In this document: one piece after another, positions 40,963-44,111 of the stretch
How positions within the stretch are numbered: position 1 is the stretch's first letter
Layout: every line of letters begins with the position of its first letter
Sequence record: PZ379076.1
From: a phage
DNA length: 44,111 bases
Direction: 5' to 3' (one strand)
Notes under the pieces: model-generated
What the model saw: the letters and a program-made list of their open reading frames with translations, nothing else
Told to the model about the DNA's origin: nothing
Database searches by the model: none
Translations under genes and position numbers: made by a program

Positions 40963-40996
40963 TACGCTGCTACACAGCAGCGTACAACTTTAACTT
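40963..40996 (+). terminator. stem-loop / putative terminator after the DUF551 gene
   Basis: Perfect 9-bp stem tacgctgct (40963-40971) / agcagcgta (40976-40984), loop acac, then caacTTTaacTT; second 7-bp hairpin at 40997-41018. Confidence 0.4.
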
Positions 40997-41242: not shown

Positions 41243-41271
41243 TTGCACACTAAGATAGAATAGGCTACTAT
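41243..41271 (+). promoter_or_regulatory. promoter, TTGCAC-N17-TACTAT family
   Basis: TTGCAC (41243-41248), 17-nt spacer with AATAG-N4-CTATT, TACTAT (41266-41271); aaacgagaggagaga leader. Confidence 0.5.
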
Positions 41272-41301
41272 TCATTTACACAAACGAGAGGAGAGACAGA
41301 G

Positions 41302-42693: not shown

Positions 42694-42876
42694 ATGGTGC
42701 AGAGATATACCTACGACCAGATATTCGGGTTTACTCCTGATGTTGAGGGCGTGTTAGTGCTTTACGAAGATTACGCGAAACTTGAAGCTGAGTTACAGAA
42801 ATACAAAGACCAGTACCCTGATTACGTCGAGTGCGCGAACTGTGGGTCGGTTACACATGTGGAGGGGGTGGAGTGA
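42694..42876 (+). CDS. hypothetical protein
   Basis: ATG 42694 with AGGAGAAG SD inside track ORF 42688-42876; CANCGS motif. Confidence 0.5.
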   Translation: MVQRYTYDQIFGFTPDVEGVLVLYEDYAKLEAELQKYKDQYPDYVECANCGSVTHVEGVE

Positions 42877-43169
42877 TGTCGTTAGCAACTGACATCCTGA
42901 AACGAAGCGGCCTTGCGCCGCTGTCACCGAGAGCGAAGACACGTATACACAAGCGTCGCCGTAACGTGCTGTACCCAGAGATACAAGAACGGCGTAAAGC
43001 TATCCGCGCCTGTGGATTCCAGAACGGAAAGGCCGTGAATCTAGGAGAGTTTAAAACACAGGAACGCGCGGCAATCGCTAATCGGTTATTTAATTACTGG
43101 AAATCGTTGGGATACGATGATATTCCATCGAAACCGCAGAGACGACAATACATCTGGCGTCATAAATAA
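42876..43169 (+). CDS. hypothetical basic protein
   Basis: ATG 42876 (TGATG overlap) inside track ORF 42831-43169. Confidence 0.5.
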   Translation: MSLATDILKRSGLAPLSPRAKTRIHKRRRNVLYPEIQERRKAIRACGFQNGKAVNLGEFKTQERAAIANRLFNYWKSLGYDDIPSKPQRRQYIWRHK

Positions 43170-43199
43170 ACCGTTATTAAGATAATTCCTAACCGTGCT

Positions 43200-43239
43200 A
43201 TCCTCCAGTTACTGCATACTTAATACGCACCTGGAGGAT
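43200..43239 (+). promoter_or_regulatory. stem-loop sequestering the SD of the holin-like gene
   Basis: 9-bp stem atcctccag (43200-43208) / ctggaggat (43231-43239), 22-nt loop; 3' arm contains GGAGGA, 6 nt before the TTG start at 43245. Confidence 0.45.
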
Positions 43240-43244
43240 TCATC

Positions 43245-43553
43245 TTGGATAAATTTACTGAAACAGTGACGGGGTGGCTTCTCGCTGCCGCACTGGTCGG
43301 TGGATTGGTCGGACTAAGACAACATAAAAAGTCTATATCCGGGCCGATTGACGGACTGGTATTTCTTCTCACCGGCTTCGCGTGCGCCATTTTCGGCGCA
43401 CCTCTTGCCGCTCAATGGTTTGGTATTACTGGCGAGCGCGAGATAGCTGGCCTCGGATTCATCATTGCCATTCTCTGGATGCCAATTTATTCCCGTCTCT
43501 CTGGCATTGTCGCCGGAGAATACATCGCACGTCGCGGAGGTGGTAATGAATGA
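43245..43553 (+). CDS. holin-like membrane protein (three predicted TM helices)
   Basis: 102 aa, TTG start; three hydrophobic helices and charged C-terminus; two genes upstream of the lysozyme. Confidence 0.55.
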   Translation: MDKFTETVTGWLLAAALVGGLVGLRQHKKSISGPIDGLVFLLTGFACAIFGAPLAAQWFGITGEREIAGLGFIIAILWMPIYSRLSGIVAGEYIARRGGGNE

Positions 43554-43818
43554 GTTATTCTGGTTTGGTGGTATGCTCGCAATCGGGAGCACATCGCTGT
43601 TTAACGTATACCACCCCAGCGTAGATGATGGCCTGTTCGGGCGTGTGCTTTATATTCTGACTGCTATTGTCTGCGCCGCCGGATGTATCCACCTGTTACA
43701 GGGCAGCATGTCACCTACGTTGCCTGAGACATTAATCACTTTAGTTGCGCTGCGCCAGATTCGTCAGGCGTGGCTGTCGTACGGAGGACATAAGCGTGTC
43801 TCGAAACATTTCAGATAA
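43546..43818 (+). CDS. second small membrane protein of the lysis cassette (holin/antiholin candidate)
   Basis: ATG 43546 inside track ORF 43465-43818; two hydrophobic helices; overlaps neighbours. Confidence 0.45.
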   Translation: MNELFWFGGMLAIGSTSLFNVYHPSVDDGLFGRVLYILTAIVCAAGCIHLLQGSMSPTLPETLITLVALRQIRQAWLSYGGHKRVSKHFR

Positions 43819-44111
43819 TGGGTTGCATTTCACCGCAGCGTTTGAGGGGTTCCGCGGAACTGCGTATCGTGCTACGCCAAATGAGAAGTACCTGACTATT
43901 GGGTACGGTCATTATGGGCCAGACGTAACGCCAGGCAAGACCATCACCCCGGGACAAGGCCTCCTGTTACTGAATCGTGATATGGCTAAGGCCGTAGCTG
44001 CGGTTGACGCAGCAGCACACCATTCATTGACACAGGCACAGTTCGACGCAGTGTGCGACCTGGTGTATAACGCGGGTGCCGGTGTGATTGCGGCTACTAC
44101 TGGCACAGGTA
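43796..44111 (+). CDS. endolysin (lysozyme-like), N-terminal part; 3' end at window positions 1-173
   Basis: GTG 43796 with GGAGGA SD; translation ...AAFEGFRGTAYRATPNEKYLTIGYGHYG... resembles the catalytic E...TIGYGH region of phage lysozymes; runs off the window end in frame with 1-173. Confidence 0.7.
   Translation, partial: MSRNISDNGLHFTAAFEGFRGTAYRATPNEKYLTIGYGHYGPDVTPGKTITPGQGLLLLNRDMAKAVAAVDAAAHHSLTQAQFDAVCDLVYNAGAGVIAATTGTG

What the first reader, a model, noticed from the sequence alone, without database searches (positions are those of the whole stretch)
43200..43247. Holin-like gene starts on TTG with its SD buried in a 9-bp hairpin
The only SD upstream of the first lysis gene (GGAGGA, 43233-43238) forms the 3' arm of a stem with 43200-43208, and the start codon is TTG. 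Weak start plus occluded SD is a plausible brake on holin translation, conceptually similar to RNA structures that tune holin/antiholin starts in other phages.
Basis: partly seen in the sequence, partly recalled or inferred. Interest (0 to 1): 0.45.

Follow-up and report, generated by a model that had tools for sequence, protein, structure and literature searches.

The report
Hairpin locks holin ribosome-binding site
A conserved RNA hairpin hides the ribosome-binding site of this phage's first lysis gene, which also starts on a weak TTG codon. It most likely stops the cell-killing holin from being made from transcripts that read in from upstream genes, a known kind of control seen here in a phage group where it has not been described.

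Summary
ATCCTCCAG (43200-43208) pairs perfectly with CTGGAGGAT (43231-43239), which holds the only SD (GGAGGA). A TTG start follows 6 nt later. The window is a Kagunavirus-type siphophage, and the gene is a 3-TMD holin (phrog_2359) followed by a second holin-like gene and an endolysin.

The TTG aligns with the ATG or GTG starts of homologues. Stem, SD and TTG are almost invariant in 46 Kagunavirus sequences plus 21 metagenome copies. Nucleotide diversity falls to 0.005-0.05 across 43175-43280, against 0.1-0.3 in the flanking genes. A hairpin with the SD in its 3' arm precedes the homologous holin in 11 of 17 compared lineages, each with different arm sequences.

In four lineages the hairpin scores as an intrinsic terminator. 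In the window it does not (22-nt loop, no U-tract). Folding leaves the SD unpaired with P about 0.001. Opening the site costs about 14 kcal/mol, against 3.6 kcal/mol for an RNA that starts at 43211.

A sigma70-like promoter (TTAAGA-16-TGcTATCCT) overlaps the 5' arm in the window, with orthologous sites in the relatives. Its transcripts would lack the anti-SD arm, as in T4 gene e.

Verdict: a real, conserved SD lock. A constant "brake" is less likely than insulation from read-through. New member of a known kind.

The parts
42876..43169 (+). Upstream co-directional gene (97 aa, phrog_9632, function unknown), stop TAA 43167-43169. It is the source of read-through transcripts. A ribosome stopping here ends about 30 nt before the 5' arm, so it is unlikely to melt the hairpin.
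43175..43265 (.). Block of very low nucleotide diversity (pi 0.005-0.06) running from the -35-like hexamer to codon 7 of the holin gene. Relatives that carry a different upstream gene keep it too.
43177..43182 (+). -35-like hexamer TTAAGA (4/6; TTAGGA in many relatives), 16 nt upstream of the -10-like hexamer.
43196..43204 (+). Extended -10-like element TGcTATCCT. TG and TATCCT are invariant in 46 sequences and the 'n' position (43198) is polymorphic C/G. It overlaps the 5' arm. The predicted transcription start is about 43211 (inferred, not measured).
43200..43208 (+). 5' arm of the hairpin (anti-SD), ATCCTCCAG.
43209..43230 (+). 22-nt A/U-rich loop. It contains the in-frame stop TAA 43221-43223. 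It would be the 5' end of the leader if transcription starts near 43211. It is replaced by an unrelated 9-nt loop in the divergent relative L157.
43231..43239 (+). 3' arm of the hairpin, CTGGAGGAT.
43233..43238 (+). Shine-Dalgarno GGAGGA. P(unpaired) is 0.001-0.002 in any RNA that contains 43200-43208, and 0.49 in an RNA starting at 43211.
43245..43247 (+). TTG start codon, present in 46 of 46 Kagunavirus-type sequences. It aligns with the ATG/GTG starts of homologues (M-D-K...W).
43245..43553 (+). First lysis gene: 102-aa holin-family protein (phrog_2359) with three hydrophobic segments.
43546..43818 (+). Second holin-like gene (90 aa, phrog_2508). Its ATG overlaps the end of the first gene by 8 nt, and it has its own SD, GGAGGTGG.
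43796..44111 (+). 5' part of the endolysin gene (PF00959). GTG start preceded by GGAGGA. The gene runs off the window.

Best explanation
The inverted repeat encodes an RNA hairpin that insulates the holin gene from transcripts arriving from the upstream co-directional genes.

Shown:
- The hairpin base-pairs the whole SD in every RNA that contains 43200-43208.
- It is conserved, together with the TTG start.
- It is the local version of a hairpin found in front of the homologous holin in many related phage lineages. In several of those it is a full intrinsic terminator.
- The Kagunavirus version has lost the U-tract and has a 22-nt loop. It therefore acts mainly on translation rather than termination.

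Inferred:
- Translatable holin mRNA comes from a sigma70-type promoter (TTAAGA-16-TGcTATCCT, 43177-43204) whose -10 and discriminator DNA encode the 5' arm.
- Its transcripts would start near 43211, lack the anti-SD arm and have an open, strong SD that offsets the weak TTG.
- Holin synthesis, and so the lysis clock, would depend on this dedicated promoter and not on upstream read-through. Bacteriophage T4 uses the same logic for its lysozyme gene e.
For: Structure and energetics:
- The hairpin is the MFE and centroid structure, z = -3.1.
- P(SD unpaired) is 0.001-0.002 in RNAs starting at 43100, 43170 or 43193, against 0.49 in an RNA starting at 43211.
- Opening 43230-43257 costs 14.3 kcal/mol in the long RNA and 3.6 kcal/mol in the short one.
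- The holin initiation region ranks 4th most occluded of 67 SD+start sites in the window.

Conservation within the genus:
- TTG is present in 46 of 46 sequences. The stem is intact in 43, has a G.U pair in 2 and an A.C mismatch in 1. The same picture holds in 21 metagenome loci.
- Diversity has a minimum of 0.005-0.05 across 43175-43280.
- LSPA1 changes 6 of 22 loop bases and none of the 18 stem bases. Two of those changes lengthen the stem to 13 bp.
- L157 (75% protein identity) has an unrelated loop but a 12-bp stem, the same SD and the same TTG.

Other lineages:
- Stable hairpins ending 4-11 nt before the holin start occur in Jerseyvirus, Cornellvirus, Serratia Tsm2, Klebsiella VLCpiS11a, two Dhillonvirus types, KW1E, L164 and L165. 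Their MFEs are -10.8 to -22.6 kcal/mol and z-scores -2.4 to -6.3. The arm sequences differ, including a compensatory T:A to C:G change between JL1 and Ioannina.

Promoter:
- The candidate scores 9.9 bits, rank 50 of 88,150 positions in the window, and is the best site in the intergenic region.
- Orthologous sites rank 1st to 7th within their loci in 12 of 17 relatives.
- A start 7 nt after the hexamer would leave 0-4 nt of the 5' arm in the RNA in all 9 lineages tested.
- The polymorphic intergenic sites avoid the TG and TAnnnT positions. The conserved block begins at the -35-like hexamer.
- Natural control: in L162 the upstream gene is divergent, so no read-through is possible. The orthologous TTGCAA-18-TATACT site is the top-scoring site there, and no hairpin is present (MFE -3.5, z = +0.8).

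Precedent: T4 gene e, where the structure lowers lysozyme synthesis 100-fold in long transcripts (PMC3014915).
Against: - No transcription start has been measured.
- The -10 hexamer TATCCT matches only 4 of 6 consensus positions. The standard promoter scan, which needs 9 of 12, reports nothing in this intergenic region.
- The published in-silico promoter and terminator lists for the relative fBC-Eco01 have no entry here.
- The promoter weight matrix uses consensus frequencies from my own memory.
- Rank 50 in a 44-kb genome is borderline.
- Two lineages with co-directional upstream genes (L159, L163) have no significant hairpin.
- One Kagunavirus contig (L158) carries a G-to-T change that weakens the stem to -9.3 kcal/mol.
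- Within Kagunavirus the stem hardly varies, so true covariation within the genus is sparse.
- The lineages share ancestry, so their agreement does not amount to independent trials.
Confidence: 0.45

Rival explanations
1. Constitutive translational brake. Every holin mRNA carries the hairpin. Occasional breathing of the stem, together with the weak TTG, gives a low, steady rate of holin synthesis that sets lysis time.
For: SD occlusion and the TTG start are real and conserved. No promoter passes the standard scan in the intergenic region. A strong SD (GGAGGA) could help ribosomes capture the transiently open state. GATAAT at 43181-43186 could be a -10 whose transcripts include the whole hairpin, but it scores poorly: 4.3 bits, rank 1269.
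Against: An opening cost of 14 kcal/mol, and -21.6 kcal/mol for the LSPA1 hairpin, would cut initiation by several orders of magnitude under the de Smit and van Duin relation (own knowledge). That is hard to reconcile with making enough holin within one latent period. The -35 region that a GATAAT promoter would need lies outside the conserved block. The orthologous promoter-like site persists without a hairpin in L162.
Confidence: 0.2
2. Transcription terminator or attenuator. The hairpin's job is to end or thin out the upstream operon, and its overlap with the SD is a by-product of tight spacing.
For: The homologous hairpins in JL1, Ioannina, KW1E and SETP3 carry T5-T8 runs and score as terminators, with d-scores of +4 to +28. 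The window's tail UUCAUCUU keeps 4-5 U in 8.
Against: In the window the loop is 22 nt and the d-score is -55 to -42. The terminator scan finds nothing. The hairpin is also kept in four other lineages with no U-tract that were scored (LSPA1, VSiA, Tsm2, Klebsiella VLCpiS11a), and L164 and L165 also lack a U-run. In all of these the SD still sits in the 3' arm, which termination alone does not require.
Confidence: 0.12
3. Activation by RNA processing. Long transcripts are cut in the A/U-rich 22-nt loop, for example by RNase E. The 5' fragment then decays and the SD is freed.
For: The loop is single-stranded, A/U-rich and unusually conserved within Kagunavirus.
Against: There is no direct evidence. 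The loop is replaced by unrelated sequence in L157 and is only 6-8 nt in most other lineages. A cleaved 9-bp duplex would still need to dissociate.
Confidence: 0.08
4. DNA-level palindrome bound by a protein, or a chance repeat with no function.
For: Perfect 9-bp inverted repeats are not rare in this window (2 observed, 5.4 expected). The genome does contain a separate recurring palindrome.
Against: The arms change sequence between lineages while staying complementary, including G.U pairs that work only in RNA. The element is unique in the genome. Half-sites 31 bp apart centre to centre would be unusual for an operator.
Confidence: 0.04

Closest known systems
Bacteriophage T4 gene e (lysozyme) initiation-region structure; also T4 soc, 49 and I-TevI (review PMC3014915)
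   Same: This is also a lysis gene whose SD is sequestered in a helix in long read-through transcripts. A promoter in the DNA that encodes the 5' strand would give short, translatable transcripts. The purpose would be to prevent premature lysis.
   Different: Here the gene is the holin, not the endolysin. The candidate promoter is of the host sigma70 extended -10 type, not a T4 late promoter, and it is not experimentally shown. The hairpin appears to derive from an intrinsic terminator. The start codon is TTG.
Lambda S gene sdi stem-loop and dual-start motif (summarised in PMC3359269)
   Same: Both are RNA structures at the 5' end of a class I-type holin gene that influence translation initiation.
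   Different: sdi partitions ribosomes between two start codons (Met1-Lys2-Met3) to set the holin:antiholin ratio. This gene has one start, no second Met and no Lys-Met motif. The hairpin hides the SD rather than choosing between starts.
Intrinsic terminators directly upstream of the homologous holin gene in Dhillonvirus (JL1, Ioannina), Jerseyvirus (SETP3, Jersey) and phage KW1E
   Same: The position is homologous and the flanking sequence is homologous (GAT(T)AAT..CGTGnTAT). The 5' arm is C-rich and the 3' arm is G-rich and carries the SD. The stem ends 5-11 nt before the start codon.
   Different: Those have 6-8 nt loops and T5-T8 tracts (d-score above 0) and ATG or GTG starts. The window has a 22-nt loop, no U-tract, a stronger SD (GGAGGA) and a TTG start.
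Lambda pR'-tR' arrangement upstream of the S-R-Rz lysis genes (own knowledge)
   Same: Both combine a promoter and a terminator immediately upstream of the lysis cassette, so that lysis gene expression is gated.
   Different: In lambda the terminator lies downstream of the start site and is overcome by the Q antiterminator. Here the predicted start lies inside the hairpin, so no antiterminator is needed, and none was looked for or found.

Membership tests
SD-sequestering initiation-region hairpin of the T4 gene e type | The SD and/or start codon is base-paired in a stable local helix | tested here: met
   All six SD bases are paired, with P(unpaired) 0.001-0.002. MFE -16.7 kcal/mol, z = -3.1.
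SD-sequestering initiation-region hairpin of the T4 gene e type | The helix is maintained by selection (conserved or compensated in relatives) | tested here: met
   43 of 46 stems are intact and 2 more keep a G.U pair. LSPA1 and L157 keep or extend the stem while the loop diverges. Nine further lineages have the hairpin with different arm sequences. L159 and L163 have no significant hairpin, and the single-contig Kagunavirus variant L158 has a weakened one (-9.3 kcal/mol, z -0.3).
SD-sequestering initiation-region hairpin of the T4 gene e type | A promoter lies within the DNA encoding the 5' strand, so that its transcripts lack the inhibitory arm | tested here: inconclusive
   TTAAGA-16-TGcTATCCT scores in the top 0.06% of window positions. 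Orthologous sites are top-ranked in relatives, and the predicted start falls at the end of the arm in 9 of 9 lineages. It fails the 9-of-12 scan, and no start-site data exist.
SD-sequestering initiation-region hairpin of the T4 gene e type | Translation is low from long transcripts and high from short ones | not testable with these tools
   Only the computed opening costs are available: 14.3 against 3.6 kcal/mol.
Rho-independent (intrinsic) terminator | A short G+C-rich stem with a 3-8 nt loop | tested here: not met
   The stem is 9 bp with 5 G:C pairs, but the loop is 22 nt. The scan finds no terminator here.
Rho-independent (intrinsic) terminator | A run of U immediately after the stem | tested here: not met
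   The tail is UCAUCUUG, or UUCAUCUU if the stem is taken to end one base earlier. The d-score is -55 to -42, against +4 to +28 for the homologous elements of JL1, KW1E, SETP3 and Ioannina (formula from memory).
Lambda-type dual-start holin with sdi structure | Two in-frame start codons a few codons apart (Met-Lys-Met) giving holin and antiholin | tested here: not met
   The N-terminus is M-D-K-F-T-E-T-V. The next in-frame candidate start is GTG at codon 8, which has no SD.
Holin (phrog_2359, class I-like topology) | Profile match to an annotated holin family | tested here: met
   phrog_2359, E = 9e-31, residues 1-96. No Pfam family matches.
Holin (phrog_2359, class I-like topology) | A small protein with transmembrane segments, encoded next to an endolysin | tested here: met
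   102 aa with three hydrophobic stretches at about 6-24, 33-59 and 65-86. The endolysin (PF00959) starts 243 nt after the holin stop codon, beyond the second holin-like gene.
Holin (phrog_2359, class I-like topology) | Forms membrane lesions that release endolysin at a set time | not testable with these tools
   No experimental study of this protein family was found.
Any curated RNA family (Rfam 15) | A match to a covariance model | tested here: not met
   Only three chance-level hits (E 1.9-5.3) in 42900-43600, and none over the hairpin.

The most novel reading that the evidence does not exclude
One compact stretch of DNA does two opposite jobs across Guernseyvirinae, Dhillonvirus and their relatives. 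As DNA, the 7-13 nt just upstream of the holin leader form the -10 and discriminator of a dedicated lysis promoter. As RNA in read-through transcripts, the same nucleotides form the anti-SD or terminator arm that silences the holin. Lineages have moved between full terminator, pure SD lock (Kagunavirus, with TTG) and no hairpin (where the upstream gene is divergent). Possibly there is also a leaderless holin mRNA in the L160/L161 lineage, where TATCCT sits exactly 6 nt before the ATG.
Probability: 0.4. Interest if true: 0.55.

Novelty: new member of a known kind. Interest (0 to 1): 0.4.

Why it matters
Lysis timing determines burst size and phage fitness. Kagunavirus, Jerseyvirus and Dhillonvirus phages are widely isolated for therapy and biocontrol, yet nothing is known about how they time lysis.

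If the model holds, a 70-nt element explains how the holin stays silent while upstream genes are transcribed. It also gives a simple handle for engineering lysis time: stem, start codon and promoter mutations.

It also explains recurring annotation errors in these genomes. The TTG- or GTG-start holin is missed or wrongly extended in several GenBank records.

Finally, it is a clear natural example of a terminator evolving into a purely translational lock.

Tried and rejected
- RNAalifold on a MAFFT alignment of 12 lineages gave no consensus structure, because MAFFT misaligned arms with different loop lengths. I compared the arms by hand and by single-sequence folds instead.
- The built-in promoter and terminator scan found nothing in the intergenic region.
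- Rfam gave no family.
- The 22-nt loop was examined for sigma70 hexamers. None has a usable -35 (read; top intergenic sites).
- The recurring PHIRE palindrome GAATAGT-N3-CTATTA is absent from this intergenic region.
- The intergenic motifs AAGATAATTCCTAAC and TGnTATCCTCC do not recur in the genome beyond chance, so this is not a shared late-promoter motif.
- A scan of bacterial genomes found no relatives. The broad alignment A4 was too diverse for a locus search.
- Literature searches found no transcriptome or start-site data for these genera. The promoter and terminator lists of the fBC-Eco01 paper have no entry at this spot. The Golestan lists were seen only in part: none of its 7 PHIRE promoters, and none of the terminators T01-T08 that were visible, lie here.
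- A second inverted repeat (43175-43181 / 43219-43225) that would make a pseudoknot was considered. It was left as inconclusive: one compensatory change and one breaking double change.

Full report
OBSERVATION. ATCCTCCAG at 43200-43208 and CTGGAGGAT at 43231-43239 form a perfect 9-bp inverted repeat separated by 22 nt. GGAGGA (43233-43238) lies inside the 3' arm, and TTG (43245-43247) follows after a 6-nt spacer. The reading frame is closed by TAA at 43221-43223. No start codon and no other SD lies between that stop and the TTG. Folding 43190-43260 as RNA gives the hairpin as both the MFE and the centroid structure (-16.7 kcal/mol, z = -3.1, 0 of 200 shuffles as stable). A perfect 9-bp inverted repeat with a 3-30 nt loop is not rare in itself: the window has 2, and Markov shuffles give 5.4 +/- 2.6. 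The repeat alone therefore proves nothing. Its position and its conservation carry the argument.

WHAT THE GENES ARE. The window is about 90% identical to Kagunavirus siphophages (Guernseyvirinae) such as BEU33, Golestan and K1G. ORF 43245-43553 encodes a 102-aa protein that matches phrog_2359 'holin' (E = 9e-31) and has three hydrophobic segments. It is followed by a second holin-like gene (43546-43818, phrog_2508) and an endolysin (GTG 43796, PF00959). Each gene overlaps the previous one. The upstream gene (42876-43169, function unknown) is co-directional, and no terminator-like site lies on the + strand between about 41300 and the hairpin.

THE START CODON. RefSeq K1G annotates the same TTG start. 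Homologues from ten lineages align from residue 1 (M-D-K/N...W), mostly with ATG starts, and with GTG starts in Jerseyvirus and Pantoea phage Nafs113. TTG is therefore the true, homologous start. Three GenBank records mishandle this gene for lack of an ATG. LSPA1 omits it. EcoPhCCP1 extends it upstream. Jersey UPWr_S1 starts it at an ATG that runs through the hairpin.

ENERGETICS. In RNAs starting at 43100, 43170 or 43193, the SD is unpaired with probability 0.001-0.002. Forcing 43230-43257 open costs 14.3 kcal/mol. An RNA starting at 43211 has P(unpaired) 0.49 and an opening cost of 3.6 kcal/mol. Among 67 SD-plus-start sites in the window, several of them spurious ORFs, the holin site ranks 4th most occluded. 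By the de Smit and van Duin relation between initiation-region stability and expression (own knowledge), -14 kcal/mol is closer to an off-switch than a dimmer.

CONSERVATION WITHIN KAGUNAVIRUS. I compared 46 sequences from IMG/VR and GenBank, not all of them independent. All 46 have the TTG. Forty-three have the intact stem, two have A43207G (a G.U pair) and one has T43232C (an A.C mismatch that leaves 7 bp over the SD). Twenty-one metagenome copies look the same. Nucleotide diversity falls to 0.005-0.05 across 43175-43280. It is 0.1-0.27 in the rest of the holin gene and 0.25-0.3 in the endolysin gene. This holds even where the upstream gene has been replaced.

The two most divergent members are the most informative. 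LSPA1 changes 6 of the 22 loop bases and none of the 18 stem bases, and two of those changes extend the stem to 13 bp (-21.6 kcal/mol). L157 (75% protein identity) has an unrelated loop but a 12-bp stem, the same SD and again a TTG start. One contig (L158) carries a G-to-T change in the SD arm that weakens the stem.

OTHER LINEAGES. The same holin family (alignment A4) is preceded by a hairpin ending 4-11 nt before the start codon, with the SD-like G-run in the 3' arm, in the following lineages:
- Dhillonvirus JL1 (AGTCCCAGTGAG/CTTACTGGGACT, then T6-7, then ATG)
- Dhillonvirus Ioannina
- phage KW1E
- Jerseyvirus SETP3 and Jersey (13 bp, T-run, GTG)
- Cornellvirus VSiA and St162
- Serratia phage Tsm2
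- Klebsiella phage VLCpiS11a
- metagenomic lineages L164 and L165 (GTG starts)

Their MFEs run from -10.8 to -22.6 kcal/mol and their z-scores from -2.4 to -6.3. The arm sequences differ while staying complementary. One example is a T:A to C:G replacement between JL1 and Ioannina. The flanking DNA is recognisably homologous. Two lineages (L159, L163) have only weak, non-significant structure.

TERMINATOR OR NOT. I scored each hairpin with the d'Aubenton-Carafa formula, recalled from memory. JL1, KW1E, SETP3 and Ioannina score as terminators (+4 to +28). The window (-55 to -42), LSPA1, VSiA, Tsm2 and the Klebsiella phage do not. The tool's terminator scan also finds nothing in the window. The hairpin is thus kept in lineages where it cannot terminate efficiently. 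The feature common to all the hairpin-bearing lineages is that the SD sits in the 3' arm. The Kagunavirus form looks like a terminator that lost its U-tract, gained a long loop, strengthened its SD to GGAGGA and weakened its start to TTG.

A PROMOTER OVER THE 5' ARM. TGcTATCCT (43196-43204) is an extended -10-like element that overlaps the 5' arm, and TTAAGA lies 16 nt upstream of it. With a simple sigma70 weight matrix (frequencies from memory) this site scores 9.9 bits, ranks 50th of 88,150 positions in the window and is by far the best site in the intergenic region. GATAAT at 43181 scores only 4.3 bits.

The three common polymorphisms in the intergenic region fall at 43180 (-35 position 4), 43192 (spacer) and 43198 (the 'n' of TGn). 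TG and TATCCT are invariant. The conserved block begins at the -35-like hexamer. Orthologous sites rank 1st to 7th within their loci in 12 of 17 relatives. Examples are TGATATAGT, TTGCAG-18-TATACT, TTGACC-17-TACTAT, TGtTAATCT and TGcTAACCT. Placing the start 7 nt after the hexamer (own knowledge) leaves only 0-4 nt of the 5' arm in the RNA in all nine lineages tested, although the arms range from 7 to 13 nt.

There is also a natural control. In L162 the upstream gene is divergent, so there is no read-through and a promoter must lie in the 115-nt gap. The orthologous TTGCAA-18-TATACT is the top-scoring site there, and no hairpin is present (MFE -3.5, z = +0.8).

Against the promoter: the standard 9-of-12 scan does not report it, the in-silico lists published for fBC-Eco01 have no entry here, and no start-site data exist for these genera.

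MECHANISM.
Shown:
- The SD is locked in every RNA that contains 43200-43208.
- The lock and the TTG are under purifying selection.
- The element is homologous to terminators in related phages.

Inferred:
- Read-through transcripts from the upstream genes cannot express the holin.
- The translatable mRNA starts near 43211 from the overlapping promoter and carries a free, strong SD that offsets the TTG.

I put this model at about 0.45. The rivals are:
- a constitutive brake on all transcripts (0.2)
- a mainly transcriptional terminator or attenuator (0.12)
- activation by cleavage in the loop (0.08)
- a DNA-binding palindrome or chance (0.04)

COMPARISON WITH KNOWN SYSTEMS. The closest system is T4 gene e. 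There, early read-through transcripts fold over the ribosome-binding site and lysozyme synthesis drops 100-fold, while late promoters located in the DNA for the 5' strand give translatable RNA (PMC3014915). This gene has a single start and no Met-Lys-Met motif. No Rfam family matches.

NOVELTY AND VERDICT. It is a new member of a known kind, in a phage group where it has not been described. It adds an evolutionary series from terminator to SD lock to no hairpin. Interest 0.4.

Noticed in passing
window 285, 5963, 7766, 7857, 17320, 29742, 33298, 36104, 36148, 40002, 41258 (16-nt sites): A recurring palindrome, GAATAGT-N3-CTATTA, gives 32 matches with up to 3 mismatches against 9.7 expected. 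It is the 'PHIRE phage promoter' motif reported for Golestan and fBC-Eco01, and it looks like an operator overlapping a TATTAT -10. The copy at 41258-41273 probably marks the start of the operon that runs into the lysis genes.
   Followed up: partly
window 43175-43181 / 43219-43225: A second perfect 7-nt inverted repeat, TATTAAG/CTTAATA, would pair the hairpin loop with the region upstream and form a pseudoknot. A43180G gives a G.U pair in 29 of 46 sequences, and LSPA1 adds T43220C to make G-C, which is compensatory. The L010/L108 lineage, however, has a C.A mismatch at the neighbouring pair. Inconclusive.
   Followed up: partly
L160 and L161 (metagenomic relatives), about 18 nt upstream of the MD(N/Y)KYFW start: In this lineage GGTATCCTCC lies directly before the holin ATG, with TATCCT exactly 6 nt upstream of the ATG and TTGACT or TGGACT 15 nt further up. 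No SD is present. This would fit a leaderless holin mRNA. Gene callers instead extend the ORF to an upstream ATG (MGYPPD/E...).
   Followed up: partly
L039 (LSPA1), L108 (EcoPhCCP1), L112 (Jersey UPWr_S1): GenBank annotation errors caused by the non-ATG start. LSPA1 lacks the holin gene altogether. EcoPhCCP1 extends it 41 codons upstream. Jersey UPWr_S1 starts it at an ATG upstream of the hairpin, whereas RefSeq SETP3 uses the GTG.
   Followed up: yes
window 43783-43798 and 43537-43548: The endolysin also uses a non-ATG start (GTG 43796) behind a perfect GGAGGA, and it overlaps the second holin-like gene by 23 nt. The second holin-like gene's ATG (43546) overlaps the first holin's stop by 8 nt. 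Translation of the cassette may therefore be partly coupled to initiation at the locked first site.
   Followed up: no
window 40963-40984: This is the only other perfect 9-bp inverted repeat with a short loop in the window: TACGCTGCT-N4-AGCAGCGTA. It was not examined further.
   Followed up: no
window ~43338-43373 (inside the holin gene): The fBC-Eco01 paper predicts a rho-independent terminator (T20) at the homologous place inside the holin coding sequence. In the window the stem is weaker (CCGGGCCG/CGGACTGG with mismatches), followed by TATTTCTTCT.
   Followed up: no
L157 (ERZ28594344 scaffold_189): This divergent Kagunavirus-type relative has the TTG holin followed directly by the endolysin, with no second holin-like gene called between them.
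   Followed up: no
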